DNA of 64,000 nucleotides. Source: Synergistaceae bacterium. GTDB lineage: Bacteria > Synergistota > Synergistia > Synergistales > Aminobacteriaceae. The first letter of the stretch is position 1. Each line of letters starts with the position of its first letter. The notes beneath the pieces are model-generated. The model had not been told where the DNA came from. It saw only the letters and a program-made list of their open reading frames with translations, and did not search any database. The DNA lies in contig WRHH01000004.1 of NCBI GenBank assembly GCA_009783355.1, positions 32,852-96,851 of the forward strand, in the 5' to 3' direction. Shown piece by piece: positions 2,420 through 63,800 of this stretch. The position numbers and the translations under genes are program-made.

Positions 2420-2500
2420 AACGACAACTCCAATACAATAGTGTTTATAAATATAACGTTGTTATTATGCCACCAAGCGTTACAAATTACAAATTATAAA

Positions 2501-2962
2501 TTATCCAAACAACACAAGATACACGTTCATTTCATTCTCGTTTAAGAATTCATTTATTGTCGTCTCCGCGACATTCATCGCTTCATCTTTTGGATATCCG
2601 AAAATTCCCGATGAAATCAAAGGAAACGCTATCGATTCCAGATTATGCTTTTTTGCAAGCAGCAGCGAATTCCTGTAACAATTCCTGAGCAGTGTTTCTT
2701 CTCCATGTCCTCCGCCATGCCAAACCGGCCCGACGGTATGAATAATATGCTTTGCGGGAAGATTATAGCCTTTTGTTATCACAGCTTCTCCTGTCTTGCA
2801 TTCGCCTATTTTGTCGCATTCGCGTTGAAGTTCGTCCGCTCCGGCAGCAGCAAAAATGGCGCCGCATACGCCGCCTCCGCGTTTCAAGGCCTCGTTGGCT
2901 GCGTTCACTATAGCGTCGGTCTTTAGTTTCGTTATATCCCCTTTTATTATTTCAAACGGCAC
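2501..2962 (-). CDS. Macro domain protein (O-acetyl-ADP-ribose deacetylase, YmdB-like)
   Basis: 153 aa. Motifs [21 protein letters not shown] and [14 protein letters not shown] are diagnostic of macro domains. Confidence 0.8.
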
Positions 2963-13999: not shown

Positions 14000-14024
14000 C
14001 ACAATGCACAATGAAAGACAAAGG
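13999..14024. repeat. Heptamer array (GCACAAT x2) plus AAAGACAAAGG box
   Basis: Sits directly after the ankyrin stop. Same family as arrays at 28094, 48279, 54559, 55970. Confidence 0.6.
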
Positions 14025-14075
14025 CCCATGAACTAAAGTTCACCACGATGAATGAAATTTGGGAACCTCTTGGTA

Positions 14076-14176: not shown

Positions 14177-14454
14177 GCAAGTTTCGTTCACTGTGGCGAG
14201 TGAAACTCGTGACCATTGCTTCGTCCCAAAAAGACGCTCCTCGCAAAGACGCTGCCCATTACACGTCTTTGCGACCGCGAGTGTAGCGTGGCGGGAAGCA
14301 ATCCAGAAGGCTCATAACATTGATAAGTTAATATTACTGGATTATCACGAAAGTAATAAAAAGTTATATTAAAAATATTTTATGGTAAAGACAAAAAGTA
14401 AATCGTATTGAGTAATTATTTTATTTATATCATTAATATAACATATTTGTTATA

Positions 14455-24267: not shown

Positions 24268-24342
24268 TGGAGCGGAAGACGGGATTTGAACCCGCGACCC
24301 CAACCTTGGCAAGGTTGTGCTCTACCCCTGAGCTACTTCCGC
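24268..24342 (-). tRNA. tRNA-Gly (anticodon GCC)
   Basis: Reverse complement reads GCGGAAGTAGCTCAGGGGTAGAGCACAACCTTGCCAAGGTTGGGGTCGCGGGTTCAAATCCCGTCTTCCGCTCCA. Cloverleaf with a GCC anticodon and encoded CCA. Confidence 0.9.
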
Positions 24343-28091: not shown

Positions 28092-28093
28092 AT

Positions 28094-28137
28094 GCAATGC
28101 ACAATGCACAATGCACAATGAAAGGCAAAAGATAAAG
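28094..28137. repeat. Heptamer array (GCACAAT x3-4) plus GAAAGGCAAAAGA box immediately after the dnaK stop
   Basis: gcaatgcacaatgcacaatgcacaatgaaaggcaaaagataaag. Confidence 0.7.
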
Positions 28138-28210
28138 AACTGTTTTGATATTGGGGTGCGGGTTATGGTTTTCGTACCAAATATAATGCAAGCGCAATAA
28201 AGACACTTTA

Positions 28211-28240
28211 GGGGCGGTTCGTTTATAGCCGCCCTTTTCT
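28211..28240 (+). terminator. Putative rho-independent terminator after dnaK
   Basis: gggcgg...ccgccc stem followed by TTTTCT. Confidence 0.4.
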
Positions 28241-28730: not shown

Positions 28731-28960
28731 CTAAAAATCATTACAAGTATACAAATGTGCAAGCTGTTGGAGGTTGTAAGACCACCAAATAACCTTTTTT
28801 CGACGCGACAAATTTTTTCGCTTCAATGCCTTATCAATATCCACGCCGCCTAACGCGTTCATCATTGCCTTAAGCTCATACGCTATCGCATCTGCTTCAG
28901 CTTTGCTGTTTTCAGCGGCAAGAGCCGTCAAAATCTTTCTTTAGCTTCCAGTTTTTGCTA
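28731..28960 (-). pseudogene. Deletion-derivative remnant of the flotillin/NAD-kinase-like operon
   Basis: 28771..28830 matches 30559..30617 (3' end of the NADK-like gene). 28834..28956 matches 31633..31757 (flotillin C-terminal coding). The fused ORF reads LTALVAENSKAEADA...ALGGVDID. Confidence 0.75.
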
Positions 28961-29031
28961 AATTTGCTCCCATCTGGAACGCATGTTCACAATCTGTTGG
29001 GAATTGTTCCTTTTTCTGTCTTGCTTTGTTG

Positions 29032-30318
29032 TTACCACGGTAAAGGGATTATTTCAAAAGCATTTGCAACAGGGCCGACCGGCATGACCACCCTTCTTCT
29101 CACCGAGATAGCGCCTTCCTCTTTATTAAAGTAGCTCGCCGGGTAGAACCTGTCATCTGACGATGTGCTTCCACTATGATCAGGTTTCCCGGCCGGATAA
29201 TAGGTTATATCCTCAATAACGGAATCGTCAATGCTCTGCCACTGTCCCTGCCTTTTGGGCGTAAGCTGCTCCCTCTCCGTGTAGCCGGGGATGTTCGCGT
29301 TCCAATACGTGAACATACAATTGGTGAAATAGAGGCTGCCGTCGGATTCGCGCCAGTTGCCCGCCTTAAGCGTCATAAGCGAAGCCATGGACATGGAGCC
29401 AACACGGGTATATGTGACCCGCACTTCCTTAAAAGTGCCGTCGTCCTTGAATTCAAAATATATGTCGCCGCCGCCGGCAAGTCCATATTCGCCAATCACA
29501 TGAATCGTGCCGCCCCAAATACCGAAATATTTTTGTTCCTCTGCGGTAGTTGTTCTTGTGGTCAGCGGCTTTACAGGTTTCGGCGGCGGGGGCGCGGCCT
29601 GTTTTTCATGCGCCAAAGGAATATGAACAAAAGCGTTTGCAACAGCCCCGGTCGGCATGACCACCCTTCTTTCGAGGCTGAATGAACCGTTCTCACCATT
29701 GACGTAGCTTGCCGGGTATATACGGTCATATTCACTTTTGGTTCCCGATTTAGTGGGGGCGGACTCTCCGGCGGGGCAGTAAAAAGCGTCCAATATTACG
29801 ACATCGTCCTCGCTTTGCCACTGCAATATGGTCATTGGCGTGATTTGTTCCGCTGCTTCCACGTAACCGGGGTTAAACGTATTCCAGGACGTGGTCATAC
29901 GGTTGGTTAAATAAAGGTTACCGTTGGATAAATGCCAGCTGCCCGCCGCAAAAGTCATTAAGTTGGCATGATACGATAACGGCCTCTCTGACAGTTCCCG
30001 CCGGACGATGCCGACCAATACCTCCTTGAACGTGCCGTCGTCCTTGAGCTCATAATATATTTCCCCTATACCGCTCAGTTCGTCGGGATATCGGTCTATG
30101 TATCTGTAATAGTCCGTGTATCCACGGACGATGCCGCCCCAAATACCGACGTATTTTTGTTCTTCTGCGGCAATCGTTCTTGCAGTCGGCGGTTCGGTCG
30201 CTCCCGGGCTTCCTGCCCTCTGCGGCGCCTGCGCGTCCTGCGCAATGGCGGCGACCGCCGTGGCTGCGAAGATACCAGATGAGATTATTAGCGCGAGGGT
30301 CAAGATTTTCTTTTTCAT
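29032..30318 (-). CDS. Secreted protein made of two tandem homologous domains of about 190 aa each (unknown function)
   Basis: Signal peptide MKKKILTLALIISSGIFAATAVAAIA. Repeats begin TTAEEQKY(V/F)GIWGG and end RRVVMP(T/V)G(A/P)VANAF. Confidence 0.6.
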   Translation of the reverse strand: MKKKILTLALIISSGIFAATAVAAIAQDAQAPQRAGSPGATEPPTARTIAAEEQKYVGIWGGIVRGYTDYYRYIDRYPDELSGIGEIYYELKDDGTFKEVLVGIVRRELSERPLSYHANLMTFAAGSWHLSNGNLYLTNRMTTSWNTFNPGYVEAAEQITPMTILQWQSEDDVVILDAFYCPAGESAPTKSGTKSEYDRIYPASYVNGENGSFSLERRVVMPTGAVANAFVHIPLAHEKQAAPPPPKPVKPLTTRTTTAEEQKYFGIWGGTIHVIGEYGLAGGGDIYFEFKDDGTFKEVRVTYTRVGSMSMASLMTLKAGNWRESDGSLYFTNCMFTYWNANIPGYTEREQLTPKRQGQWQSIDDSVIEDITYYPAGKPDHSGSTSSDDRFYPASYFNKEEGAISVRRRVVMPVGPVANAFEIIPLPW

Positions 30319-30563
30319 TAGATGTGATTTCCTCTCTGTATTGATCTTTCCATTTTATATCATAAACACGCAGATGGGCGTACTGCTGTTGTTCCTATGC
30401 ATGCGTCAGGTATAGATAGAACGCTGATAAGAAAAATTCTGAAAATTATGATATGTCTATTGACGACTATAACAACAGAGTATAAACATTTTCTGTGGAG
30501 TAGTAAATATCTTTCGTAATCGGATCCGAATTCATGTTGGAAATTCTGCTGTATTCGTGGTTG

Positions 30564-31496
30564 TCAGACCACTAAATAGCCTTTTTTCGACGCGACAGAT
30601 ATTTTCGCTTCAATACCTGAATTGAATCGTAAAAAATCATGCTCAATTCCATCGCTGAAAATTACCCCGCCTTCCGGCATCTGCGAAATCACCAATAATG
30701 GAGAGTTGGTAATTGTCCCAAAAACAATACCTGCGCCTGTGGTATTGCTGTGGAAAGGTTCGCGTACCGAGTAATATAGAAACTCGCTGTCCCATTCGGG
30801 GAAAGTAATGCTAGAGTTTATGATTTTGCCGGTAATAACTCCGGCTATTCTGCTGGCGCCTGCAATTACGCTTTTTAACCAGCCGGTTGAACCAAGCCCC
30901 GTGGAAACAATAATTCCGCTAGATGATTGATTCTCCTCCTGTCCGTTGATTTTAATTTTGTATCTTGCCGAAACATGGGTTTGCCTTCCGATAAAAAAGT
31001 CGTTAACGGCCAATAAGCTTTGCCCATCATTCAGTTCGGCTATTGCCATTGAAATTTCTTTTTTTTGCCTGCGATTACCTAGCACTTCCCGAACAACGAC
31101 GGGCACATCAGCACAGCGAAAAGGGAGCAGCACACCGTCATATCTGGCAGGATCGGGGTTTATGGCAATAAGCGGCTGACCATTCAGGTATTTCAGCGTG
31201 TTTGCTACTAAGCCGTCCTGACCGATGACAACGACTATGTCATCTTCACTGAACATGAAATTGGGCGCGTATTCTCTATCGATTAATTGAACCCGAGCCA
31301 AATTTTTCAAGTGGTTAATTGAAGCGAAAACCGATTCTTTATAAATCCTGTCCTCTTCAACATACTCCTTGATATCTCCGCCCATTTTTTCCACATAAAA
31401 GGCTGCTTGAGCCATATTATTGAACTTTTTTACCAATTCATCCGCGCGAGTTGACCTTGTTATGACGACGATTTTGCGTTCGGGTACATAACTCAT
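30564..31496 (-). CDS. ATP-NAD kinase-fold protein (COG3199-like)
   Basis: VVVIGQDGLVAN (GGDGT-like), NDG, and SSGIIVSTGLGSTGW (the DGlivSTPtGSTAY equivalent). Start overlaps the flotillin stop (ATGA). Confidence 0.55.
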   Translation of the reverse strand: MSYVPERKIVVITRSTRADELVKKFNNMAQAAFYVEKMGGDIKEYVEEDRIYKESVFASINHLKNLARVQLIDREYAPNFMFSEDDIVVVIGQDGLVANTLKYLNGQPLIAINPDPARYDGVLLPFRCADVPVVVREVLGNRRQKKEISMAIAELNDGQSLLAVNDFFIGRQTHVSARYKIKINGQEENQSSSGIIVSTGLGSTGWLKSVIAGASRIAGVITGKIINSSITFPEWDSEFLYYSVREPFHSNTTGAGIVFGTITNSPLLVISQMPEGGVIFSDGIEHDFLRFNSGIEAKISVASKKGYLVV

Positions 31497-32509
31497 GGCG
31501 TCATCATTTCACGAATCAAATCGGGGGTGATATTCAATTGGCCGATTCTTTCCGCTTTACCCGCCAGATTCTGGAACGCATTTGCTATTAGAGTTTGCGG
31601 CTGCATGCCAATCACAGTCAATGCTTTGATGACGTCAATATCCACGCCGCCTAACGCGTTCATCATTGCCTTAAGCTCATACGCTTTAGCGTCTGCTTCA
31701 GCTTTGCTGTTTTCAGCGACAAGCGCCGTCAAAATCTTTCTTTTTTCTTCCAGTTTGATTTCCGCATCAAGCTGCTCATTTTTCAATTCATTTTGCCTTC
31801 TCATTTCAGCTTGTTCGGCATTGAGCTTAGTCTCGCGAACCTGCCAGCGTTTGTTTTCAACGGCGATTTCCGTATTGTACTCGTTTTCCTTGACGCCGCG
31901 CTCTTGTTCAATGGAGGCGTTTCTACGTTCATAAATAGCGTCGTCGGCCATTTTTAAGATTTTTTCTCTGGTTTCCGCCTCTAGTGCCCTTGAGGTTTCT
32001 TTGTTTGGTAGAACTGACAGAACCGTCAAACCCATGATCTCGATACCCAGCAATTGAATTTCTTCATTTCGCCGCAAGTCTTCAAGAATGCTCTTTGCTA
32101 GAGTTTCACTGGAGCGGATGGCGTCAGAAAGTTTTAAACCCTCCAAATGCTTTTTTGCCATGACGCGAACCAGATTACTTATTCTTACGGGAAGCTTTTC
32201 CGGGTCGTCGGATATGTAACTCTTTTTCCAACCTCTGACATCCAGTGTGAAATTAAGGAGTTTGATTAAATTTTTGTTATCTACTATACGATATGTGACC
32301 TGGCCTTGAATGGAAACCGACTGAAAATCCGCTGTGGCTTCTTCGAACATGAAAGGACAGTCGTCGCTCGCAATAGGCGCCACGACAATTGATGTGGTGG
32401 GAGCGTAGTAAAAAAAGGAAATTCCCGCGCCTTCTTTCACTACATGACCGTTTTTGAATTTAAGAACGTACTCGTTTGGTTGAAATTTGACGTAATGAAG
32501 CCCGAACAT
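31493..32509 (-). CDS. SPFH/band-7 flotillin-like protein (YqiK-like)
   Basis: SPFH domain N-terminus, and a long Glu/Ala/Lys-rich coiled-coil with a flotillin C-terminal pattern. Confidence 0.7.
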   Translation of the reverse strand: MFGLHYVKFQPNEYVLKFKNGHVVKEGAGISFFYYAPTTSIVVAPIASDDCPFMFEEATADFQSVSIQGQVTYRIVDNKNLIKLLNFTLDVRGWKKSYISDDPEKLPVRISNLVRVMAKKHLEGLKLSDAIRSSETLAKSILEDLRRNEEIQLLGIEIMGLTVLSVLPNKETSRALEAETREKILKMADDAIYERRNASIEQERGVKENEYNTEIAVENKRWQVRETKLNAEQAEMRRQNELKNEQLDAEIKLEEKRKILTALVAENSKAEADAKAYELKAMMNALGGVDIDVIKALTVIGMQPQTLIANAFQNLAGKAERIGQLNITPDLIREMMTP

Positions 32510-34271: not shown

Positions 34272-34420
34272 AAAATAATATGTGGGACGGTAATCCCATA
34301 ACACTTGAACAAGGCGGCATTGACAGGATTTTCAATACCGTCAATCTGTTTAACAAAGATAACGCGCATATTTTTCGGCGGCAAAGCAACAACGCGAATA
34401 GATGGAGGGTATTATATTTG
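34272..34420 (+). pseudogene. Duplicated 3' fragment of the phzF-like gene
   Basis: About 145 bp, roughly 90% identical to 36228..36365. Encodes MWDGNPITLEQGGIDRIFNTVNLF. Confidence 0.7.
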
Positions 34421-35483: not shown

Positions 35484-36365
35484 ATGAAAAAATATGATTA
35501 CAAAAAAGTTGACGCTTTTACTTCCAATAACTCGTTAGGAAATCCTGCGGCTTGCGTTTATTTAAACGAAGGACAGTCATTGGCTGAGGATGAAATGCTA
35601 AGCATCGCGAAACAGCATAAAGGTTTTGTTTCGGAAGTTGTTTACTGCACAAATAATGGCAGTTGCGGTTTTGACTTGGCGTATTATTCATCGGAATGCG
35701 AAGTCCCGTTTTGCGGCCATGGCACAATTGCATGTATGTATTCGTTGATAAAAGATTCTCCTGAATTGTTGAAACAGTCGGAGATAATTATTCATACCCG
35801 AACCAAAGGAAGCCTCATAATTTACAATAAAATAACTGAACAGGACGCAGTTTACATTTCAGCGCCCGAGCCGGTATATTCATCTGTTCCTATATCTTTA
35901 GAAGCTATTATTGATTGCTTAAGCGTGGATATATCGGCGATTTCAGACGCTTATCCTGTTGATTTTATCGACGCGGGAAACAGAACTCTAATCATACCGA
36001 TAAGAGGCTTGGAAGACGAAATAAACATCTTCCCGAATGAGCAAACCTTAAAAGAATTCTCGTTGAATAACGGCATAGACGTTATTTTGATTTTCTGCAC
36101 AGAAGTAATGGACGAAGCGCATTTTGCGCATACGAGGGTGTTCGCGGCGAAATACGGCTATCTTGAAGACCCCGCTACAGGCTCTGCAAATAGCGCTTTC
36201 GGCTATTATCTTCTGAAAAATAATATGTGGGACGGCAATCCCATAACACTTGAACAAGGCGGCATTGACAGGATTTTCAATACCGTTAATCTGTTTCACA
36301 AAGATAATAGAATATTTTTCGGCGGCAAAGCGACAACGCGAATAGAAGGGGTTTATTATATTTAA
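35484..36365 (+). CDS. PhzF-family isomerase-like protein
   Basis: KVDAFTSNNSLGNPAACVYL, FCGHGTIA. Start at MKKYDYK, with a GGGGGAGAG RBS. Confidence 0.75.
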   Translation: MKKYDYKKVDAFTSNNSLGNPAACVYLNEGQSLAEDEMLSIAKQHKGFVSEVVYCTNNGSCGFDLAYYSSECEVPFCGHGTIACMYSLIKDSPELLKQSEIIIHTRTKGSLIIYNKITEQDAVYISAPEPVYSSVPISLEAIIDCLSVDISAISDAYPVDFIDAGNRTLIIPIRGLEDEINIFPNEQTLKEFSLNNGIDVILIFCTEVMDEAHFAHTRVFAAKYGYLEDPATGSANSAFGYYLLKNNMWDGNPITLEQGGIDRIFNTVNLFHKDNRIFFGGKATTRIEGVYYI

Positions 36366-36457: not shown

Positions 36458-37456
36458 TTAGTTTATCATACTTTGTATTTGTTCCACGGGCAAACCTGTA
36501 CTCTTAGTGATTATTTCCAGTGGTATTCCATTAAAAAGAAGATTCCTTGCCACTTCTTCTTTACCTTTTACAAAGCCTTTTTCCATGCCTTTTTCCATGC
36601 CTTTTTCCATGCCTTTTTCCATGCCGCGCTCTTCAGCCATTCTTTCTTCCACTTGTTTAAGAAAAGGCTCATACATAAGCTTTCCCTCCTTATTCAGTTG
36701 TTGGCAGTATTCCCAATATTGTTTCTGCAACATTTCATCTTTCAGATTTAATATACGTATTATAAAAAGTACAAGGTCGCGTTTCTCGTTCTTGTCCCAG
36801 CTCCGTTCAGCGAGAAGTTCCGTCAACGTTCGCAGGTATTTAAACTTCTGAATCTCCTCTTTTGTTTTCTGCGCACACATTGCAGCGTAAAGGGCTAGGT
36901 CTATCGGGTTGTCGCTTATTCGTAACTCGTCGTCGTTGAGTTCCATCAAAACGAGATTATTATACCTGTAAACAATTTCCGTGCCAAAATTGGAATGAGA
37001 ATAAAACCGCTCATCTTTTCTATGACCGCTTGTAATGATAGCCAGAGCCACTGGATTTTTCCTGTAATGCGCATATATCAGACAACAGTAATGAAACATT
37101 CTCTCGGCAAGATTGCCTCCACCAGAACCTTGTTGAGCCTCACAATGGAGGAGTATCCACTTATCATTCCCGTTTTTCAATGGCACTTCAAGTATGAGAT
37201 CGGCAAAATGCGGGCTCGTATGAATTGACGGGTCTCCCGTATTCAGGATGTCACGAAATTCCTTATCGAGAAGCCGGTGAGACCGGTTCGTATCAACTGC
37301 ATTGTAAAGCTCCGGGAGCGCCCTTTTAAGCAAATAGTAAATGAAACGGTCTATTAAATCCTTCCAATAACTATCGTAATCGAAATATTCCTGCTTTTCG
37401 GAGCCGTTATAATATGCCCCCGTATTCGCTATATCTGTGATGTTCTCTGCCGTCAT
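36458..37456 (-). CDS. Rpn-family (YhgA-like) PD-(D/E)XK recombination-promoting nuclease/putative transposase
   Basis: N-terminal PD-(D/E)XK core. C-terminal DUF4351-like tail with (GMEK)x4 encoded by a 12-nt tandem repeat at 36576..36625, and ARNLLFNGIPLEIITKSTGLPVEQIQ. Confidence 0.65.
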   Translation of the reverse strand: MTAENITDIANTGAYYNGSEKQEYFDYDSYWKDLIDRFIYYLLKRALPELYNAVDTNRSHRLLDKEFRDILNTGDPSIHTSPHFADLILEVPLKNGNDKWILLHCEAQQGSGGGNLAERMFHYCCLIYAHYRKNPVALAIITSGHRKDERFYSHSNFGTEIVYRYNNLVLMELNDDELRISDNPIDLALYAAMCAQKTKEEIQKFKYLRTLTELLAERSWDKNEKRDLVLFIIRILNLKDEMLQKQYWEYCQQLNKEGKLMYEPFLKQVEERMAEERGMEKGMEKGMEKGMEKGFVKGKEEVARNLLFNGIPLEIITKSTGLPVEQIQSMIN

Positions 37457-37582: not shown

Positions 37583-37843
37583 AGTTCGGAAAACTATACT
37601 GCTCAATTCTCAATTTCAGGCGGGCACATTATTGTTGCCTTAATTGTTGTCATTCTTCAGACAGCCTTTTGCTGATGTATAAAGCATTGTTCAAAACTCT
37701 TGTGATATAGACCGTTTCAAACCTGATTACAAAGAAAACTATATAATTATCAACAATCAATGACTAAAACCACTTGGAACACTCAGCTTCTGAACCTATT
37801 ATCTATATTCGTTACGTCATATATTCAAAGGACAACTCTCTTC

Positions 37844-38704
37844 TCATGATCCATTTTCAGCTTCAGTACCCCCACGCTGTATGAAATCAATTAGCTTTTT
37901 CGTAATGATATAAGGTAAAGCAGGTTTATCTATCTCCTTGATAACCTTTAAATATAAATCAGAGTCAATTGAATGTCCCAGTTTTTTTGCTGATTCCTTT
38001 AAGCGTTTTAGTTCATAATTTACTATTTTGTTAGTAATTTCGCGCTGTCTGCCTAGATGCAGCTTGTTTTGACTCATAATTAGTTCGTCGCGCATGACAT
38101 CGAAAAGAAATTTGTCGCGGTTTAGCCAATCTGCTAATATCTGCTCGTAATTGGTTATAATTAAGCTCTTTGTCATGTTATCTGATGCTACTGCGCATTG
38201 TAAGGCTGCATATATATAATTCACACATTCATCCACACCAGAACAAATATTTCTAATATATGACCCCCATTTATTCGATTGAAGCTGCGGAATACTGAAG
38301 AAAAACTCGTCTTGATCCATTTTAAAAAAATCGTGAACATCTGTCAGTATTTTCCTATTTTTGGAAAAAACATCAGCATTGACATTATGGCAATAAACAT
38401 ATCGTAAAGCATTTATCTTTTTAACATACTCTTCAACATAATCCATCTTTTGGTCGTTCAGGGAACCTTTATTATTCAGCATATTAAGTAATTTTTTTAT
38501 ATTAGGCATACAGTCAAAAAACAATCCATAGATATTAGTCACGGCGCACCAAAACAGTCCTTCGTCATTGCTACACTGATGTGCTTTTGGCGCGTAATAG
38601 GCAGCGAAAAAAAGACGCGGTGATAAATGGGATGCCATATATATATTTATTTCTTCAATTTTGCGTGTTGTAAATGCAACCCCATCTATGTAATTATCAC
38701 TCAT
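37844..38704 (-). CDS. Hypothetical 286-aa protein translationally coupled to the SIR2/NTPase gene
   Basis: Start ATG overlaps the upstream stop by 8 bp. No recognisable motif. AT-rich codon usage. Confidence 0.6.
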   Translation of the reverse strand: MSDNYIDGVAFTTRKIEEINIYMASHLSPRLFFAAYYAPKAHQCSNDEGLFWCAVTNIYGLFFDCMPNIKKLLNMLNNKGSLNDQKMDYVEEYVKKINALRYVYCHNVNADVFSKNRKILTDVHDFFKMDQDEFFFSIPQLQSNKWGSYIRNICSGVDECVNYIYAALQCAVASDNMTKSLIITNYEQILADWLNRDKFLFDVMRDELIMSQNKLHLGRQREITNKIVNYELKRLKESAKKLGHSIDSDLYLKVIKEIDKPALPYIITKKLIDFIQRGGTEAENGS

Positions 38705-41700
38705 TCGCTTGACCGTCTTTCGGAGTCAGCCCACGGAAAGCGGCAAGTCCCATGTAACCTAATCCAAGCTGAAAATCGTCGCATGACACACCACTTTTTA
38801 TTTCAATTCCTTTTATATTCCATTTGCGAAAATAAATATCCCTACCACCGTTATTATCTCTACTTATTCTTCCAATGCGGACATAATTACCGCTTAGAAC
38901 ATTATCTGGTGTGTTTTGGTTAAAATTACCGCTGAATTCTAAAGGCTTTCCTTTTTCGTCGCAAAGAATATGTTTTGTGCGGATACGATCATTGCCCCGT
39001 TGCTCAACTAATTCGGTACAATTGCGTATTTTGTTGATTGTTTGCCCGTAAGCACTGTATTGTTCTAGATGTAGGTTCGCTAATGCCATGACATAAAAGA
39101 ACAACAGCGTTTTTGGCGTGCAATCTTGATTTCCGCAAAAATCACGGCATACACCGAGTATATCTTTCCATTGGTCGTTTGTCATCGCAGTAAACTGTTC
39201 TTCAGCTGTAAAAATCGGCGTTTTATTATATGCAATCCATTTTAGTTTTAACCGTTGCCTCTGGCAGATATGATCTTTTATTGTTATTACAGCATATTCA
39301 TTCTCGTCATAATATTTCGCGCATATTTCACGGCATCTTAAAGCTTGGTCATTGTTGAATGCTTCAATTCGGTTTTCATACTCTCTTTGGCGTTTAGTAA
39401 TTCCAGCAGTCTCCATTTCTCTGGCCACTTTCAAATAGACAGCATATGGATTTCCATCAATAATGAGGCTATTAATATATTCATCACTTAAGGAAGAATC
39501 TATCTTTCTATAAATCCCTTCGGCAGGATTAATAAAATTCGAATCTTGTGCAACATAAACATACTCATCCTGAGTCTTTCGTATCAAATTATCAGCGGAA
39601 GCAAGCAATTCAACTGTTTTGGCCTGCGGCAATTTGTCGCAAAATTTCAAGGTAAGCCATAATTTAGTGCTGATAATATACCCGTTATCCGGTGCGTAGC
39701 CAAGCTGCTCGTCTAAATCCTTACTAAGTTCCATATATTCTCGTTCATCATATTTGTTTTCATACTCCATCAGATTTATGCAACAGTTTACCCTTTCAAC
39801 CACCAAGCTTGTAAGTAGACGTGACGAAATTTGTCCATGTCTCTTTTCAATTTGGATGGCTTCGTTGCAAATTATAACAGCATCACGTAACATTTTCTGT
39901 TTGTTGTCGTTTATGTGTCTATTCTCACTTTCTAGCATTTTTATATACTCGCGGATGTATGACGCCTCTTGCACCACGAGTGGCGATAATAGTGATCCTT
40001 GCTCTCGTGATTCGCGTAACGCATCAATTATCTTTTCATATTCCTCGGATGTCAAACGCTGAAAATCCTTGGAGTTTGGACCTATCCTAATCAACAACTT
40101 TACAATTAAGTTCACCTCGGTTTTATCATTGTAATTCAGGGTCATTATAATATTCACAATCTGGTTAACTTCTTCAGACTCAATTATCTTTTGTGACCGT
40201 AAATAAATCATTGCTTCGCCACGGGTTCTGAACCGTACAGCGTAATCGGAAAACTCATATTCGTCATATGTCAGATAAATCATGGATGAAAGCACTTCCT
40301 TTACCCGGTGATCATATAGATTTATCAGACGCAGTATAAGCGAAAAAGGCATGAAGAGGTCATATTTTGTGCATATGGCCGTGTTTACTAGTGCTTTCTT
40401 AATGTTATTAATAATTTTATCTTCGTCGTTATTTGTTTGCCCTTTTTCGTTTGTAATAAATCCTGAATTTTTTAAGGCTATTTTTATCTGGCTTGTTTCG
40501 TATTTTTCAGCAATAAGCTTTTCGACAAAATCTTTACTAGAATATTGAATTACATTCTCAATATAATTGCCCATACCTTTTTCAATCCCAAGTCGCGTGT
40601 CTGTGAGTGAGGTGTATAGGAACAGCATGAAATTATTACGCAATTCTTCTGATTTTTTAAGTTGTTCAATTACTTTGTCAATATACACCTGTTCCCATCG
40701 CGCTTTGCGACTAAGAATCTGCTTGAGATGGTTGATTTCAAGAGAATCATCACCCATATTCAATGATTTATTTGTTTCAAGGAACTGAAAATAGGTTTTT
40801 TTTACACTTTTTGTGATTTGTTGCGTCATATGCTCATCTATGCTTTCGTATTTGTCTGCGTTTTCATATGCAGTAAAAACAAATTGGACATTACGCGCGC
40901 GGGTATGCTTTATGTAGTTACATAAACTCCTGCATTTTAGCATGTCGCTGGTAAAAGCCGACAAATCCCAAATGACAAGTGAACACTTAGCTCCAATTTT
41001 TTCAAGCTGGTGTAAAACATTATCTAAGACATTCATTTCACCATCAGCATTCTCAATCCTTCCGCTTGGAGACATCATAACTTCGCGATGAAAATCTATG
41101 TCCTTTTTGTTTATAAAGATAACAGGGTATTCTTTTTCGTAAAAAACGCGGTATGCTAAGTAAGCAACTGCAACACTTTTACCACTACTTGGTTCTCCTT
41201 TAAGACATATCGGATAGTTATCTTGCTTTTTTTCTTCAGTACCGGGATTCTTTAGACCTTTATTCACTCGTTTGAACAATTCTTCATCGTGAGCTCGCAC
41301 TAAATTAAACTTATTCTTGTAACCGTACCATGCTGGGGAAGTGGTGCTCTCCTTTAAAAAACTGGAAAATTCTGTTTCTATGTATTGTGGAAGTACTATG
41401 CGCCTGTTAATTTCTTCTTCAGTCAGCAATGTTGCAAATTCATTGAAGCGCACCAAATCCTTTTTATCTATAAAGCAAGCTTTGCCAGCTACGTACACTT
41501 TTGTTTTGTCGCTTTCGTAATGAAGGCTATAGGAATTGTCATACTCGTCATTGACTGAGTCATCGGGTACGGTAAATTCTTCGCTTAAGCATAGTATTGG
41601 GGTGGGATCTTCGTTCTCCATGTCTCGTTCGGGTAATATTTCTTTTACTAGTATATCTTTGACACCAAAAAAGATAACAGAGCTGTCACGTTTTACACTA

Positions 41701-42152
41701 TAGAGGAAGTCTTGCATTTCGCTTGTAATAAATGCATCGTTTTCGGAATAGCCTACAAAGATGAAACTACCGCCATTCTTTAGCCTGTCATCAAGAACTC
41801 TTTCTAAAGCTTTTCGGGCTGTCTTTTGGTCGCGTTGAGATGGTTTTGCTCTTGATACTGATTCAATTTCCGGTGTTCCGAAAAGATAGCATATTTTTAG
41901 GTTTCGTTGCTTAGGAAAGCACGGATCGTCGATGGACACCAATCTCACTTGTCTGTATGAAGGAAGGGCTTTTGTTACGGCGTTACACAACGCCAAATCT
42001 CGTTGCGAAGTTATAATGAGCCACCATTTCTGCTTGAGGATGCGCAAGTTTTCTTCATTTGCTAAGTCAAAACTCTCGCCGACAAACAACACGTGCGGTT
42101 CTGAATCTAAGTTGTCCAGAATTCTACTGGAAATATCCTTTACGTTTTGCAT
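38697..42152 (-). CDS. 1151-aa protein with an N-terminal SIR2-like domain, a central P-loop NTPase and a C-terminal helical region (candidate antiphage defence NTPase, SIR2-STAND-like)
   Basis: N-terminus HVLFVGESFD...LIITSQRD...IFVGYSENDAFI (SIR2_2-like). Walker A GEPSSGKS near residue 320, and hhhhD Walker B LVIWDLSAF. The remaining roughly 700 aa are helical. Confidence 0.65.
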   Translation of the reverse strand: MQNVKDISSRILDNLDSEPHVLFVGESFDLANEENLRILKQKWWLIITSQRDLALCNAVTKALPSYRQVRLVSIDDPCFPKQRNLKICYLFGTPEIESVSRAKPSQRDQKTARKALERVLDDRLKNGGSFIFVGYSENDAFITSEMQDFLYSVKRDSSVIFFGVKDILVKEILPERDMENEDPTPILCLSEEFTVPDDSVNDEYDNSYSLHYESDKTKVYVAGKACFIDKKDLVRFNEFATLLTEEEINRRIVLPQYIETEFSSFLKESTTSPAWYGYKNKFNLVRAHDEELFKRVNKGLKNPGTEEKKQDNYPICLKGEPSSGKSVAVAYLAYRVFYEKEYPVIFINKKDIDFHREVMMSPSGRIENADGEMNVLDNVLHQLEKIGAKCSLVIWDLSAFTSDMLKCRSLCNYIKHTRARNVQFVFTAYENADKYESIDEHMTQQITKSVKKTYFQFLETNKSLNMGDDSLEINHLKQILSRKARWEQVYIDKVIEQLKKSEELRNNFMLFLYTSLTDTRLGIEKGMGNYIENVIQYSSKDFVEKLIAEKYETSQIKIALKNSGFITNEKGQTNNDEDKIINNIKKALVNTAICTKYDLFMPFSLILRLINLYDHRVKEVLSSMIYLTYDEYEFSDYAVRFRTRGEAMIYLRSQKIIESEEVNQIVNIIMTLNYNDKTEVNLIVKLLIRIGPNSKDFQRLTSEEYEKIIDALRESREQGSLLSPLVVQEASYIREYIKMLESENRHINDNKQKMLRDAVIICNEAIQIEKRHGQISSRLLTSLVVERVNCCINLMEYENKYDEREYMELSKDLDEQLGYAPDNGYIISTKLWLTLKFCDKLPQAKTVELLASADNLIRKTQDEYVYVAQDSNFINPAEGIYRKIDSSLSDEYINSLIIDGNPYAVYLKVAREMETAGITKRQREYENRIEAFNNDQALRCREICAKYYDENEYAVITIKDHICQRQRLKLKWIAYNKTPIFTAEEQFTAMTNDQWKDILGVCRDFCGNQDCTPKTLLFFYVMALANLHLEQYSAYGQTINKIRNCTELVEQRGNDRIRTKHILCDEKGKPLEFSGNFNQNTPDNVLSGNYVRIGRISRDNNGGRDIYFRKWNIKGIEIKSGVSCDDFQLGLGYMGLAAFRGLTPKDGQANE

Positions 42153-48269: not shown

Positions 48270-48278
48270 AAAAATACA

Positions 48279-53324: not shown

Positions 53325-54601
53325 ATATGAGCGCAAGTATTTTAATGAAACTCAAAGTATTTACCCATTATCTGCCGCTTCTCCTCAAGGGCGAAATGTC
53401 ATTCAGGCGTTTTGTTGCGTTTATGCGTAGGATGTCGTTTTTCCTCTCGAAAATGGGTCATAATAAATTTGTCAAATTTAACGGAGGCACGCGGTTCGGT
53501 TTCTATATCCCGACTTACCCGTCGAGGGCTTTTTGCACGACGACGGATAAATTCAGGACTTTCGAAGGTAAATTTCCATGTATCAACGTTCTCCTGTCCG
53601 TTACGTCGGCGTGTATGCACAAATGCGAGTATTGCTATCAGAGGCGGGACGCAGGCGCGGACATGGATCTTGACTTGCTTATAGCAACGGCGCGGAAACT
53701 TCAGGATATGGGTATAGCGCTTTTCAGTATTGAGGGCGGCGAGCCGTTTCTGAGGTACGACAGGCTGAAAGCTTTGTGCAACGCTATCGATGACCGTTCG
53801 GAGATTTGGGTCAACTCAAACGGCTGGGGCATGACCGTAGAGAGATTAAAAGAGCTCCGGATAGCAGCTGTGACTTTTTCTCTGCACCATCCCGAGCCCG
53901 AGGCTTTTAACAAGTTCATGGGGAACGAGCAGGCATGGGCCCACATGGAACAAGGCATCAAAGCGTGCCATGAAGCGGGCGTCCCCGTGACGTTCAACAC
54001 CTGTCTGATGAAAGAGGCGTTCTACGACGGAACTTTCGAGAAGGTCATGGATTACGCAAAAGAACAGGGAGTCCTGATGATACAGTTGATAAAACCAAAA
54101 CCTGCGGGCGGCTGGCTCTTAAATGACGAACTCCTCTTTTCGGAGGAGGACATGAAGGCTGCAAAAGTGAAGATCCACATGTACAATAAGGACAAAAAGT
54201 ACTCGGCGTTCCCCGCTATCAGCGCGCAAATAATCGAAGAGCAGCCGGACGTGTTTGGCTGCACTGCGGGCGGTACGGACAGGTTTTATATTAACGCAAA
54301 GGGCGACGTCCAGCCGTGCGAGTTTCTGAACATCTCGTTCGGCAATATCGCAGACGAAAAATTCGAGGACATCTACGACAGGATGAGAGCATGTTTTGAA
54401 ACTCCGGGAGAACGCATCCTGTGCGAAGAGGCGGCAAAAAAGATAGCAGCGCTATACAAACAGCATAATTTGAACTCCCTGCCGCTTCCGCCCGAACTCT
54501 CGAAGCAGGTCTACGAAGAATGGGACAGAGGCGCGGCAACGGAGTTGTATAGAATAACAGTTGCGAGTGGCGAGTTGCGAGTTGCGAGTGAAAGACCTTA
54601 A
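53321..54601 (+). CDS. Radical SAM protein with SPASM-like C-terminal domain
   Basis: CMHKCEYC (CxxxCxxC). C-terminal Cys cluster GCTAGGTDRFYINAKGDVQPCEF. The last 13 codons (VASGELRVASERP) are encoded by the heptamer array. Confidence 0.75.
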   Translation: MNMSASILMKLKVFTHYLPLLLKGEMSFRRFVAFMRRMSFFLSKMGHNKFVKFNGGTRFGFYIPTYPSRAFCTTTDKFRTFEGKFPCINVLLSVTSACMHKCEYCYQRRDAGADMDLDLLIATARKLQDMGIALFSIEGGEPFLRYDRLKALCNAIDDRSEIWVNSNGWGMTVERLKELRIAAVTFSLHHPEPEAFNKFMGNEQAWAHMEQGIKACHEAGVPVTFNTCLMKEAFYDGTFEKVMDYAKEQGVLMIQLIKPKPAGGWLLNDELLFSEEDMKAAKVKIHMYNKDKKYSAFPAISAQIIEEQPDVFGCTAGGTDRFYINAKGDVQPCEFLNISFGNIADEKFEDIYDRMRACFETPGERILCEEAAKKIAALYKQHNLNSLPLPPELSKQVYEEWDRGAATELYRITVASGELRVASERP

Positions 54602-54686
54602 AAACAGTTGCGAGTTGCGAGTGGCGAGTGAAAGGCAAAAGACAGAGGCAAGAGGCTTCCATTGAACATTGTGCATTGAACATTGA
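54559..54686. repeat. Heptamer arrays (GTTGCGA/GTGGCGA x about 8; CATTGAA x4) with a GAAAGGCAAAAGA box
   Basis: gttgcgagtggcgagttgcgagttgcgagtgaaagacc...gttgcgagttgcgagtggcgagtgaaaggcaaaagacagagg...cattgaacattgtgcattgaacattgaa. Confidence 0.7.
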
Positions 54687-55141
54687 AAGCTATTGATTAT
54701 GCAAAGAATAACAGATACCTTAAAAATACTTATGCTATTGAGGAACTGGACAATCTCTCGAAATGGGGTAAAAAAACTAATTTATTTATAGTGATATTCG
54801 TTTACGTTTTACTGTTAGTATTGTTTGTGTGGATTATAAGGCTTATCAGCCGTTACTGGGATAAAGAAACAACGAAGTTTGTGCTGTGCAGTTTTTCGAC
54901 TTTTGCGATTATGGGACTACTATTTTATCTTTTCAGAGCGTCGTATGTTTATTTCGATTTGTCAGGAGTATTAACAGCTAGCTCGTTGACCCTAGGACTT
55001 ATGTTGATGATATCTAAGCTCGCGGGATGGAAAAATGTGAAGAAGTTTATATTGCATTGTTTCCTGATTCTTGTGATTGGGACGCTGACTTATATGTCAT
55101 ACATTATTTATGTAATTATCCATACTTTGATGGGTTTTTGA
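54683..55141 (+). CDS. Hypothetical membrane protein
   Basis: 152 aa, 4 TM segments. Confidence 0.4.
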   Translation: MKAIDYAKNNRYLKNTYAIEELDNLSKWGKKTNLFIVIFVYVLLLVLFVWIIRLISRYWDKETTKFVLCSFSTFAIMGLLFYLFRASYVYFDLSGVLTASSLTLGLMLMISKLAGWKNVKKFILHCFLILVIGTLTYMSYIIYVIIHTLMGF

Positions 55142-55971: not shown

Positions 55972-55980
55972 AGACAAAGC

Positions 55981-56019
55981 ACAATGCACAATGTTCAACG
56001 ATTGTGCATTGTTTTTTTT
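55981..56019 (+). terminator. Strong rho-independent terminator built from the GCACAAT heptamer and its inverted copy
   Basis: acaatgcacaat-gttcaacg-attgtgcattgt, then TTTTTTTT. Confidence 0.85.
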
Positions 56020-56108
56020 GATAATGATATAAGACATACGTCATTTTCTATTACTTGACAACATTATAAGACATATGTATTATATGTAACAAATGGAGGT
56101 GGTTTTAT

Positions 56109-62467: not shown

Positions 62468-62488
62468 TTTCCCTAATCCCTAATCCCT
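62468..62488. repeat. Heptamer array CCCTAAT x3 between purD and purE
   Basis: tccctaatccctaatcccta read directly in the sequence. Confidence 0.6.
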
Positions 62489-63800
62489 ATATTTCCCCTA
62501 TATCTTTCCTATAATGCATTTTTTCAAATTTAATTTTTCCTATTGCTTCATACGCCAAAGAACGCGCGTTTTCGATACTGTCGGATATTGCTGTGACTCC
62601 AAGCACTCTTCCGCCTGTTGTCCTGATTTCGCCATCAGCTACTTTTTTGGTCCCAGCATGATAAATTTCTACTCCTGACATTGCTTCCGCTTCTGGTATT
62701 CCCTCTATTATTTTGCCAGGCTCGTAAAAGCCCGGGTATCCTCCCGACGCTAATATGACGCATATTGAGGATTTTTTTGCGTTTTCTGACAGCGAGCTCA
62801 GAGAGTAATGCTCTTGATATTCTCCTAAAGTTCCATTACAGCATGATAAAACTGCTTCTCCAAAGTCTCCGTTGAAAATAGGCAGTACAGCTTGAGTTTC
62901 AGGGTCTCCGAAACGCGAGTTATACTCCAGCAAACACAGCTCCCCATCCGGTTTTAACATTAGTCCCAAGTATAAGACGCCGCAATATGAAATTCCTTCA
63001 TTTTTTAAACCTTCAAGGGAAGGGTTTAGTACCTGAGTCCCTATTTTTGAAAGAAGCTCTTTATCCGCCCAGCTCACAGGCGAATATGCTCCCATCCCCC
63101 CTGTATTGGGCCCTTTATTGTCATCGAAAACTCTTTTATGGTCCTGACTTGGTTCTAGTAAAATGGCGTTATTGCCGTCTGTCATCGCTAAAACCGTGAG
63201 TTCCTTTCCCTCCATGTAGTCTTCAATTACAAGCGTATTTCCGGCGTCACCGAGAAAATGCCCTTCGAGCAGGTTGCTGCAAACATCAATCGCCTCATCG
63301 TAACTGTCTGGAAGGAATACTCCTTTCCCTGCCGCAAGCCCATCCGCTTTGATAACGTAAGGCGCCTGCCTTTTTGCGAGCGCTTCTTTGCATTGCGACA
63401 TTGTGCTGCATACATCGAAGCCAGCCGTTGGGATCCCGTTTTTGACCATAAACTGCTTTGAGAATGACTTGCTTCCTTCCAGCTTAGCGCCTCTAGCTCC
63501 CGGGCCAAAAACTTTAATCCCGTTATTCCTCAGAGTATCGGAAACTCCTACGATTAGAGGTTCTTCAGGCCCTACAATGGCGAGATCTATTTCAAGCTTC
63601 TTGCATAATGCAAGAATTTCATCCGGTGCATTGATATTAGCCTGGTGACATTGCGCTATTTGCGCAATTCCGGAGTTTCCCGGCGCTGAATGAAGATACT
63701 CTTTTAAATCACCCGTCGTCGCTGCGAAGACCCTTGACTTTGCAAGCGCGCACACTATCGCATGTTCTCTCCCGCCCGATCCTAAAACCAATATTTTCAT
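62487..63800 (-). CDS. purD: Phosphoribosylamine--glycine ligase
   Basis: MKILVLGSGGREHA. ATP-grasp motifs throughout. 437 aa. Confidence 0.9.
   Translation of the reverse strand: MKILVLGSGGREHAIVCALAKSRVFAATTGDLKEYLHSAPGNSGIAQIAQCHQANINAPDEILALCKKLEIDLAIVGPEEPLIVGVSDTLRNNGIKVFGPGARGAKLEGSKSFSKQFMVKNGIPTAGFDVCSTMSQCKEALAKRQAPYVIKADGLAAGKGVFLPDSYDEAIDVCSNLLEGHFLGDAGNTLVIEDYMEGKELTVLAMTDGNNAILLEPSQDHKRVFDDNKGPNTGGMGAYSPVSWADKELLSKIGTQVLNPSLEGLKNEGISYCGVLYLGLMLKPDGELCLLEYNSRFGDPETQAVLPIFNGDFGEAVLSCCNGTLGEYQEHYSLSSLSENAKKSSICVILASGGYPGFYEPGKIIEGIPEAEAMSGVEIYHAGTKKVADGEIRTTGGRVLGVTAISDSIENARSLAYEAIGKIKFEKMHYRKDIGEI

What the first reader, a model, noticed from the sequence alone, without database searches (positions are those of the whole stretch)
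28094..28137. Family of heptanucleotide tandem arrays placed immediately after stop codons, some with a conserved GAAAGGCAAAAGA box
Arrays of 7-mers sit within 0-10 bp downstream of the stops of six genes.
- GCACAAT: after the ankyrin gene (13999), after dnaK (28094), and after the DUF6273-like gene (55970).
- GTGGCGA/GTTGCGA and AAAAGAC: after livF (48279).
- GTTGCGA/GTGGCGA and CATTGAA: after the radical SAM gene (54559).
- CCCTAAT: between purD and purE (62468).

Several are followed by (a/g)tgaaaggcaaaaga. The same box occurs inside the 81-bp repeat at 14105 and 48735.

At 55981 the GCACAAT array pairs with its inverted copy to form a strong terminator. At 54563 the array is translated as the C-terminal tail of the radical SAM protein (VASGELRVASERP).

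This non-random placement suggests a function in 3'-end formation or mRNA stability, or a slippage-prone contingency system. I do not recognise it as a described repeat family.
Basis: seen in the sequence. Interest (0 to 1): 0.65.

Follow-up and report, generated by a model that had tools for sequence, protein, structure and literature searches.

The report
Seven-base repeat arrays after stop codons
Short tandem arrays of 7-base units really do sit directly behind stop codons in this Synergistaceae genome, but they are a new example of an already described and still unexplained class of bacterial heptamer repeats, not a new system.

Summary
The window holds 19 exact period-7 arrays, against about 3 expected and 0-1 for periods 8-12. 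Seven of nine non-coding array loci start within 10 nt after a stop codon or overlap it (p about 4e-9).

The "GAAAGGCAAAAGA box" is two degenerate units of a third heptamer family (RAAAGRC/AAAAGAC).

The source is a Synergistaceae MAG. The arrays are lineage-specific:
- They are absent at the same loci in relatives with about 80% DNA identity.
- The dnaK locus is remodelled in a species with 88.5% identity, including a 44-nt indel.
- Array lengths are identical in four near-identical assemblies.

GCACAAT arrays occur in more than 119 metagenome contigs and 11 viral contigs. They lie next to a sense-strand stop 25 times and next to an antisense stop 2 times.

The same stop-proximal, coding-strand bias was published for G-rich heptamers in Xanthomonas and Nostoc (Rehm 2015), with function unknown.

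Best reading: these are transcribed heptameric simple-sequence repeats that turn over by slippage and recombination. They are tolerated just 3' of stop codons and are occasionally co-opted, as a terminator stem at 55981-56020 and as a C-terminal tail on the radical SAM protein. A contingency (phase-variation) role is not supported. A role at the RNA level is not excluded.

The parts
2480..2504 (-). TTTGTAA (sense) x3.4 array overlapping the TAA stop of the macro-domain gene 2501-2962(-). It lies 81 nt upstream of the next gene, a branched-chain permease.
   Evidence: identical in strain assembly L144
13999..14034 (+). GCACAAT x2.1 array starting on the G of the ankyrin gene's TAG stop, followed by GAAAGACAAAGG. 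The 36-nt module is 83% identical to the dnaK module.
   Evidence: family D11
28092..28141 (+). The dnaK 3' module. It reads ATGCAAT + GCACAAT x3.7 (28095-28120), then GAAAGGC AAAAGAT (the 'box', 28119-28132). It starts 1-4 nt after the TAA stop and is unstructured. The real terminator hairpin lies at about 28210-28238.
   Evidence: homologous but remodelled in related species L137
48272..48325 (+). The livF 3' module. It reads AAATACA + GTGGCGA x2.3 (48278-48293) + AAAAGAC x4.9 (48294-48325). It begins 9 nt after the TGA stop and lies upstream of a strong terminator hairpin at 48340-48393.
   Evidence: (D13)
54553..54601 (+). AATAACA + GTKGCGA x4.4 + GTGAAAGAC. It is read as the last 13 codons (VASGELRVASERP) of the radical SAM/SPASM gene and replaces the ...SGIGM/...SEIGK end seen in orthologues.
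54600..54656 (+). A second copy of the module. It reads AAAAACA + GTKGCGA x3.4 (54606-54629) + GTGAAAGGCAAAAGA (box, 54629-54642) + CAGAGGCAAGAGG.
   Evidence: D13
54660..54687 (+). CATTGAA/CATTGTG x4 array. It is the antisense form of the AATGTTC/AATGCAC units and lies about 12 nt upstream of the next ORF's ATG at 54699.
55972..56020 (+). AGACAAA + GCACAAT x2.9 (55974-55993), then an inverted copy. Together they form a 12-bp stem with an 8-nt loop (55981-56012), followed by T8. This is the intrinsic terminator of the DUF6273 gene.
   Evidence: (z = -3.0)
62470..62489 (-). ATTAGGG (sense) x2.9 array containing purD's TAG stop. It fills the purD-purE spacer and is followed by AAAGGA, a possible ribosome-binding site for purE.
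   Evidence: identical in L142 and L143
48672..48687 (+). ACTCCAC x2.3 array in the middle of the livF-ubiA spacer, not next to a stop. With the weak CTCAATT x2 array at 37602-37615, it is one of the two non-coding arrays that break the rule.

Best explanation
These are heptameric simple-sequence repeats, of the class called long SSRs or STRR-like repeats, in a Synergistaceae genome.

A small vocabulary of 7-nt units makes up short composite modules:
- GCACAAT
- GTKGCGA
- RAAAGRC/AAAAGAC, which is the supposed "box"
- TTTGTAA, ATTAGGG and CATTGAA

The modules lie on the sense strand. They begin at or within about 10 nt of a stop codon, so they are transcribed as the first, essentially unstructured, nucleotides of the 3' UTR or of the intercistronic spacer.

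They are gained, lost and remodelled on the time scale of species divergence, by replication slippage and by unequal recombination between units. They are stable among near-identical strains.

Inferred: they persist where they do because the few nucleotides between a stop codon and the next signal (terminator or ribosome-binding site) are the least constrained transcribed DNA. One orientation is better tolerated there than the other.

Most copies have at most a modest effect. A few have been co-opted:
- one arm of the terminator at 55981-56020
- the 13-residue tail of the radical SAM protein
- the purD-purE spacer
For: Shown:
- Period-7 excess and stop adjacency.
- The same units and the same flanks recur at several loci (families D11, D13 and D17).
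- The box is two RAAAGRC units. The L137 orthologue reads GAAAGAC AAAAGAC, and L101 carries GAAAGAC/AAAAGAC arrays beside GCACAAT arrays.
- The arrays lie upstream of separate canonical terminators at dnaK and livF, and are predicted unpaired there.
- Lineage-specific turnover. No arrays follow the radical SAM gene or dnaK in relatives at 75-81% DNA identity. At 88.5% identity the dnaK site is homologous, but its units are diverged and a 44-nt indel is flanked by the direct repeat AAAGACAAAAGA.
- Relatives carry related arrays at other stops. In L139, ACAATGT x3.7 starts 2 nt after a methyltransferase stop.
- Generality. In 132 GCACAAT arrays from 119 metagenome contigs, 25 abut a sense-strand stop and 2 an antisense stop (p = 5.6e-6). 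The zone within 15 nt after any stop is 4% of the non-coding DNA in those contigs.
- Phage contigs show the same pattern.
- Inverted partners occur only in the convergent arrangement, 9 against 0. L077 has a sense array after each of two convergent genes, which suggests that orientation follows transcription rather than replication.

Published precedent: heptamers are the commonest long SSR. Strong stop-proximal, coding-strand bias, transcription, and variation between related species were reported for GGGAATC and GGGGAYT repeats, with function unknown (PMC4692102; PMC4679880).
Against: - A purely neutral model does not by itself explain the 25:2 sense bias or the recurrence of one unit across phyla.
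- The proposed filter is only an inference. The antisense RNA (AUUGUGC)5 folds at -11.6 kcal/mol and the sense RNA at -6.0 kcal/mol. However, GTTGCGA arrays fold as well as the disfavoured orientation does.
- Slippage was not observed directly. No copy-number difference was found among four near-identical assemblies.
- Only about 74 kb of this genome could be examined. The one extra array cluster found outside the window (L142 7449-7490) lies 36-85 nt from the flanking stops.
Confidence: 0.55

Rival explanations
1. The arrays are functional RNA cis-elements. As periodic single-stranded 3'-UTR sites they would be bound by an RNA-binding protein or by the terminating or recycling ribosome, and would set mRNA stability, termination efficiency or re-initiation.
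For: - Strong sense-strand bias at stops across many taxa and phages.
- Orientation follows the adjacent gene at a convergent pair.
- The arrays are unstructured and transcribed upstream of terminators.
- The same units recur within the genome and across phyla.
- The literature also speculates about an unidentified binding partner (PMC4679880; bioRxiv 10.1101/2022.06.06.494920).
Against: - At least six unrelated units occupy the same position, so no single sequence-specific binder fits.
- The arrays are not conserved at orthologous loci in relatives.
- The associated genes are functionally unrelated: dnaK, livF, purD, and ankyrin, macro-domain and radical SAM genes.
- Copy number is low (2-4 units).
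Confidence: 0.2
2. The composite modules are miniature mobile or gene-converting elements that insert preferentially at gene 3' ends. A module would be an A-rich lead such as AAWAACA, then (GTKGCGA)n, then GTG-AAAGRC-AAAAGA; or a stop codon, then (GCACAAT)n, then GAAAGRC.
For: - Conserved flanks outside the tandem part occur at three to four sites (D11, D13, D17).
- In L137 a GTTGCGA module sits inside the dnaK array, bounded by a 12-nt direct repeat, where the window has none.
- The radical SAM 3' end was replaced by a module.
- Arrays are also present in phage contigs.
Against: - There are no terminal inverted repeats, no associated transposase or recombinase, and no defined ends.
- The 44-nt indel is explained equally well by deletion between direct repeats.
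- Module composition is fluid.
Confidence: 0.17
3. The arrays are contingency (phase-variation) loci, in which slippage changes copy number and switches expression.
For: Tandem short repeats are the classical substrate. One array is in frame at a gene end. The locus differs between related species.
Against: - The arrays lie after stop codons, not in 5' coding regions or promoters.
- The genes are housekeeping genes.
- There are only 2-4 copies per array.
- No indels occur in any array among four independent assemblies at 99.3-100% identity.
- A 7-nt unit inserted in frame would shift the frame, but only within the last codons.
Confidence: 0.03
4. The pattern is chance or an assembly artefact.
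For: The source is a metagenome-assembled genome, and repeats can be mis-assembled.
Against: - Independent assemblies from other samples reproduce the arrays base for base (L014, L142, L143, L144).
- The statistics are against chance.
- A homologous array exists in a related species.
Confidence: 0.01

Closest known systems
G-rich heptameric SSRs of Xanthomonas (GGGAATC) and Nostoc PCC 7120 (GGGGAYT), Rehm et al. 2015, PMC4692102
   Same: - 7-nt tandem units, mostly 2-4 copies, dispersed genome-wide in non-coding DNA.
- Preferentially between co-oriented ORFs.
[quoted passage not shown]
- Occasional inverted pairs that can form stem-loops.
- Transcribed.
- Length and sequence variation between related species.
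- Unrelated flanking genes.
- Function unknown.

The window's ATTAGGG array between purD and purE is nearly the same unit.
   Different: - A different phylum (Synergistota).
- Most units here (GCACAAT, GTKGCGA, AAAAGAC, TTTGTAA) are not G-tract units and cannot form quadruplexes.
- Several unit families are concatenated into composite modules with conserved flanks.
TAACTGA heptamer direct repeats of marine Beggiatoaceae, cyanobacteria and Bacteroidetes, MacGregor 2015, PMC4679880
   Same: - One heptamer recurs as short direct repeats at many intergenic sites.
- It is shared by unrelated phyla.
- It is oriented with respect to neighbouring genes.
- Some sets overlap the stop of the upstream gene.
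- No mechanism is known.
   Different: - TAACTGA sets lie mainly just upstream of start codons and carry stops in all three frames.
- Here the reference point is the upstream stop, and the main units are open in all frames.
- Several arrays here have no downstream co-oriented gene nearby. At dnaK the next gene is convergent.
Cyanobacterial STRR heptanucleotides (Calothrix PCC 7601; cited in PMC4692102) and the long-SSR class of Mrazek et al. 2007 (cited in PMC4679880)
   Same: Tandem heptanucleotides over-represented in intergenic DNA. Heptamers are the most abundant long-SSR period, and polymerase slippage is the proposed origin.
   Different: STRR units and hosts are cyanobacterial. This genome's units and taxon are not among those described. 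The original papers could not be read here; what is said of them rests on those two citing papers and on my own knowledge.
REP/BIME elements of enterobacteria (own knowledge)
   Same: Short dispersed repeats in transcribed 3' UTRs and intercistronic spacers, sometimes close to stop codons, able to affect mRNA 3' ends.
   Different: REPs are imperfect palindromes that act as hairpins. These arrays are direct repeats, mostly unstructured, and become a hairpin only when paired with an inverted copy.

Membership tests
Heptameric long SSR / STRR-like repeats (Mrazek 2007; Rehm 2015) | Head-to-tail tandem copies of a 7-nt unit, over-represented relative to chance and to other periods | tested here: met
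   19 exact period-7 arrays against 3.3 simulated; periods 8-12 give 0-1
Heptameric long SSR / STRR-like repeats (Mrazek 2007; Rehm 2015) | Strong bias to non-coding DNA, with the same unit dispersed at several loci | tested here: met
   13 of 19 arrays lie outside ORFs, and one more lies in an ORF's last 43 nt, although only about 15% of the window is non-coding. GCACAAT occurs at 3 loci, GTKGCGA at 3 arrays on 2 loci, and RAAAGRC at 5 or more.
Heptameric long SSR / STRR-like repeats (Mrazek 2007; Rehm 2015) | Stop-proximal placement on the coding strand, between co-oriented ORFs and not between divergent ORFs | tested here: met
   7 of 9 loci lie within 10 nt after a stop. None of the stop-adjacent arrays lies between divergent genes. 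In metagenomes the sense to antisense count is 25:2.
Heptameric long SSR / STRR-like repeats (Mrazek 2007; Rehm 2015) | Length or sequence variation of the array between related organisms | tested here: met
   Window against L137 at the dnaK site. Absent in more distant relatives. No variation among near-identical strains.
G-quadruplex-forming heptamers (GGGNATC type) | Four or more consecutive G3 tracts | tested here: not met
   The only G-tract array (62470-62489, sense TAGGGATTAGGGATTAGGGAAAGGA) has three GGG tracts plus one GG. The other units have no G tracts.
Phase-variation contingency SSR | Repeat inside the 5' coding region or promoter, so that copy number changes frame or promoter spacing | tested here: not met
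   All arrays lie at or after stop codons.
Phase-variation contingency SSR | Copy-number polymorphism among closely related strains | tested here: not met
   0 gaps over 6.1, 5.1, 4.7 and 11.7 kb in L014, L142, L143 and L144. These cover the arrays at 2480, 54559-54687, 55974 and 62470. The dnaK, livF and ankyrin arrays were not covered by a near-identical strain.
Rho-independent terminator (only 55981-56020) | Stable stem-loop immediately followed by a U tract, downstream of a gene end | tested here: met
   12-bp stem, 8-nt loop, T8; -16 to -18 kcal/mol, z = -3.0. Use in vivo is not testable here.
REP/BIME-like palindromic units | Each unit is an imperfect palindrome that folds on its own | tested here: not met
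   The arrays are predicted unpaired in their 3'-UTR context. The (AAAAGAC)5 and (TTTGTAA)5 RNAs fold at 0 kcal/mol and (GCACAAU)5 at -6 kcal/mol.
Rfam-described RNA family | Match to a curated covariance model | tested here: not met
   Only one tRNA (24271-24342) reaches the gathering score in the whole window.
Miniature transposable element (MITE-like) | Terminal inverted repeats, target-site duplication, defined ends | tested here: inconclusive
   No terminal inverted repeats. Conserved flanks and one indel bounded by a 12-nt direct repeat fit either insertion or deletion.

The most novel reading that the evidence does not exclude
Sense-strand heptamer arrays placed on the first nucleotides after stop codons could be a widespread RNA-level signal. 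Examples would be a periodic landing site for a factor acting on terminating ribosomes or on mRNA 3' decay, or a selected unstructured buffer. In that reading a few "words" such as GCACAAT are shared, by transfer or by convergence, among unrelated anaerobes, soil bacteria and their phages. The Synergistaceae composite modules would then be one dialect of that signal.
Probability: 0.15. Interest if true: 0.8.

Novelty: new member of a known kind. Interest (0 to 1): 0.42.

Why it matters
Heptamers are the commonest long simple-sequence repeat in bacteria, and nobody knows why or what they do.

This case extends the published stop-codon, coding-strand rule from G-rich units in two taxa to non-G-rich units in Synergistaceae. 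It also extends it, for one unit, to more than 100 metagenome and phage contigs with a 25:2 orientation bias. One contig with sense arrays after both genes of a convergent pair suggests the bias follows transcription.

That makes the rule look general. It also gives a simple, testable handle: insert, invert or delete an array behind a reporter's stop codon.

For annotation, these arrays can extend or replace protein C-termini and can supply terminator stems.

Tried and rejected
- **Exact-protein look-ups** for DnaK and the radical SAM protein failed at first, for DnaK because the database protein starts one codon later than the listed ORF (617 vs 618 aa). This was solved through homologue searches.
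- **GTDB scan for GCACAATGCACAATGAAAG**. The four Poribacteria hits and the Fimenecus hit are conserved coding sequence, not arrays. The source species was not hit.
- **Pooled analysis of all heptamer arrays against starts and stops**. It was inconclusive for starts. Longest-ORF calling extends 5' ends into arrays, and many "inside ORF" calls are likely spurious.
- **AATG or AUG as a conserved core.** Rejected: the commonest variant unit is AATTCAC.
- **A mini-ORF starting at ATGAAAGGCAAAAGA** (MKGKR*). Rejected: its length and sequence are not conserved at the ankyrin locus or in L137.
- **Rho loading site.** Rejected: the arrays are 15-30 nt long and several units are G-rich.
- **G-quadruplex for ATTAGGG.** Rejected: only three G3 tracts.
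- **The box as part of the 74-nt dispersed repeat.** Only a 10-nt core is shared, and the repeat was not found in any fetched locus.
- **Literature string search** for CACAATGCACAATG, and a search for STRR plus heptanucleotide plus cyanobacteria, both gave nothing.
- **Replication orientation as the cause of the sense bias.** Disfavoured by the convergent pairs and marginally by the test against a 75% null (p = 0.02). It is not fully excluded.

Full report
**1. The observation**

The sequence reads as described.

Period 7 is an outlier. There are 19 exact arrays of at least two units, against a mean of 3.3 (maximum 7) in first-order Markov simulations. Periods 8-12 give 0-1.

Listing the 80 nt after every stop codon confirms six stop-adjacent arrays and adds a seventh. 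That one is TTTGTAA x3.4 over the stop of a macro-domain gene at 2501-2962(-).

Of nine independent non-coding array loci, seven start within 10 nt after a stop. That zone is 3.8% of the non-coding DNA (binomial p = 4e-9). The exceptions are 37602 and 48672. None of the stop-adjacent arrays lies between divergent genes.

**2. Anatomy**

The arrays are composite. Three unit families recur:
- GCACAAT at 13999, 28095 and 55974, with antisense copies at 54667 and 55999.
- GTKGCGA at 48278, 54559 and 54606.
- A purine-rich family, RAAAGRC/AAAAGAC.

The "box" TGAAAGGCAAAAGA is exact only at 28119 and 54629. It reads in heptamer phase as GAAAGGC AAAAGA(Y). The orthologous site in a related species reads GAAAGAC AAAAGAC. 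An unrelated metagenome contig (L101) carries long GAAAGAC/AAAAGAC arrays next to GCACAAT arrays. So the box is two degenerate units of a third heptamer family, not a separate motif.

Similarity extends beyond the tandem part:
- 13999-14034 and 28106-28141 are 83% identical over 36 nt.
- The three GTKGCGA arrays share an AAWAACA-type lead.
- Two GCACAAT arrays share a TAAA-N7 lead (D11, D13, D17).

The 74-nt dispersed repeat (14083-14156 and 48717-48790) shares only the 10-mer AAAGGCAAAA with the box.

**3. Transcript context**

- At dnaK and livF the arrays are predicted single-stranded. They lie between the stop and a separate canonical hairpin with a U tract.
- At the DUF6273 gene the array and its inverted copy form a 12-bp stem followed by T8.
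- At purD-purE, and between the radical SAM gene and the next ORF, the arrays are intercistronic.
- The radical SAM ORF reads through an array. Its tail VASGELRVASERP replaces the ...SGIGM...SEIGK or ...SEMGK ends of orthologues.

**4. Source and relatives**

DnaK is 100% identical to a protein of an NCBI "Synergistaceae bacterium" MAG, on a 101-kb contig. The closest named radical SAM homologue is also from Synergistaceae.

Near-identical assemblies from other samples align without a single gap across the arrays at 2480, 54559-54687, 55974 and 62470:
- L014, 99.3% identity
- L144, 99.8%
- L142 and L143, 100%

So the arrays are real, and they are not length-polymorphic at this depth of divergence.

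A related species (L137; 88.5% DNA identity, DnaK 98%) has a homologous but remodelled element after dnaK. It reads ATGCAAT GCACAAT TTTCAGT GCGCAAT GTTCAAT GAAAGAC AAAAGAC ATAAAAC AGTTGCG AGTTGCG AGT AAAGAC AAAAGAT. Relative to the window, its units are diverged. It also carries a 44-nt indel that includes a GTTGCGA module and is bounded by the direct repeat AAAGACAAAAGA.

Relatives at 75-81% identity (L015-L017, L138-L141) have no arrays after dnaK or the radical SAM gene. One of them (L139) has ACAATGT x3.7 starting 2 nt after a methyltransferase stop, and a TTGTAAA array before ybaB.

The extra 10 kb of the same genome reachable through L142 holds one array cluster, 36-85 nt from the flanking stops.

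**5. Generality**

A scan of species-representative genomes for GCACAATGCACAATGAAAG found true arrays in Chloroflexi, Gemmataceae, Bacteroidia and two Bacillota/Clostridiales MAGs. The Clostridiales locus has 25 heptamer arrays in 8 kb, and several in both Bacillota loci sit at stops.

Of the 132 arrays:
- 25 abut or overlap the stop of a sense-strand ORF of at least 120 aa.
- 2 abut an antisense-strand stop (p = 5.6e-6 against 0.5; p = 0.02 against a 75% null).
- The zone within 15 nt after any stop is only 4% of the non-coding DNA in those contigs.

Inverted partner arrays occur only downstream, in the convergent arrangement (9 against 0). Contig L077 has a sense array after each of two convergent genes. 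This single clear case suggests that orientation follows transcription rather than replication.

Eleven viral contigs also carry the array, mostly 1-9 nt after a sense stop, with one antisense case.

Co-occurring units are mostly one-mismatch neighbours of AATGCAC in the same orientation.

**6. What is known**

- MacGregor 2015 (PMC4679880) describes TAACTGA heptamer repeats shared by Beggiatoaceae, cyanobacteria and Bacteroidetes. That paper also summarises Mrazek 2007: heptamers are the most abundant long SSR, and polymerase slippage is the proposed cause.
- Rehm 2015 (PMC4692102) reports for GGGAATC and GGGGAYT repeats the same features seen here. [quoted passage not shown] No function was identified.
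- A Nostoc preprint reports modest regulatory effects of heptamer repeats near promoters.
- No paper in the library contains the GCACAAT array string.

**7. Interpretation**

This is a new member, in a new phylum and with non-G-rich units, of the known class of heptameric SSRs.

Shown:
- Period-7 excess, stop adjacency and sense orientation.
- Composite modules and lineage-specific turnover.
- Stability among strains.
- One terminator and one protein tail built from arrays.

Inferred:
- Origin by slippage and unequal recombination.
- Persistence because the first nucleotides after a stop are weakly constrained.
- An orientation filter. The antisense RNA of GCACAAT folds about twice as stably. 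From my own knowledge, structures within about 15 nt of a stop can impair termination, as reported for REP elements.

The sense bias and the cross-phylum recurrence of one unit keep an RNA-level function open (probability about 0.2). A module-insertion mechanism is also possible (about 0.17). A contingency switch is not supported.

**8. Verdict**

The finding is real, statistically strong and correctly described, but it is not a new kind of element. Interest is moderate. It comes from the generality and the transcription-linked orientation of a long-unexplained repeat class.

Noticed in passing
window 14083-14307, and 48717-48802: A 74-nt dispersed repeat, 97% identical at two loci, is joined to GC-rich 37-nt units (ATTGCCGCGCCGCAAAAAGACGCGG..., three close copies). 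At 14075-14320 these form a long imperfect palindrome (-76.6 kcal/mol, z = -3.7). It looks like a MITE-like or REP-like element. It sits in the same spacers as the heptamer arrays, and no copy was found in any fetched locus.
   Followed up: partly
window about 28100-48900: In relatives L017 and L138 the hrcA-grpE-dnaK operon lies about 1.2 kb from the ubiA lipid and radical SAM cluster. In the window about 20 kb lies between them. That stretch includes a low-GC block (32-44 kb, 38-41% GC) with a 1151-aa protein that has no Pfam match (38697-42152) and several local duplications (34272-34419 against 36217-36363; 35829 against 37510). It is probably an inserted or rearranged island.
   Followed up: partly
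window 28767-31743: The gene 29032-30318(-), which has no Pfam hit, contains internal repeats about 600 nt apart (29027/29600, 29416/30013, 29508/30132). Segments 28767-28942 are duplicated at 30554-31743 (88-95% identity). This looks like a recently duplicated repeat protein or gene fragment.
   Followed up: no
window 36564-36625: A 12-nt coding tandem repeat, CCTTTTTCCATG x5.2, lies inside the ORF 36458-37456(-). It is a tetrapeptide repeat in a protein of unknown function.
   Followed up: no
window 55237-58126: A stand-alone DUF6273 protein is followed by a BlaI-like repressor and a BlaR1 (peptidase M56) sensor whose C-terminus is a DUF6273 domain. The two DUF6273 regions are 69-77% identical at the DNA level (55356-55720 against 57538-57875). 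This is an unusual sensor-domain pairing.
   Followed up: no
L137 1-6271 (related species): A prophage remnant lies upstream of hrcA, near the position where the window has its tRNA (24271-24342). It holds collagen/Big_2 tail-fibre-like genes, a peptidase M15, a holin and a tyrosine integrase. This may be a tRNA-associated integration site that is empty in the window.
   Followed up: no
L011 (Clostridiales MAG JAISFM010000003.1, 8 kb) and L090, L076, L046: These loci have an extreme density of heptamer arrays: 25 in 8 kb in L011, and 14-21 per contig in the others. Many different units are concatenated. Such genomes would be the best material for a genome-wide study of the phenomenon.
   Followed up: partly
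L149/L152 against L154 (viral contigs): What appears to be the same gene end (matching flank ...catcatgacggaataa) carries the GCACAAT array in sense orientation in two contigs and in antisense orientation in a third. This is a possible natural inversion of an array at one locus.
   Followed up: no
window 48262-48278 against L015 3160-3176: The last codons, stop and first 3' nucleotides of livF in the window (GGAATGTGAAAAAATAC) nearly match the end of the radical SAM gene in a relative (GGAATGTGAAAAATAC). The two genes are unrelated. This may be coincidence, or a shared gene-end sequence that arrays attach to.
   Followed up: no
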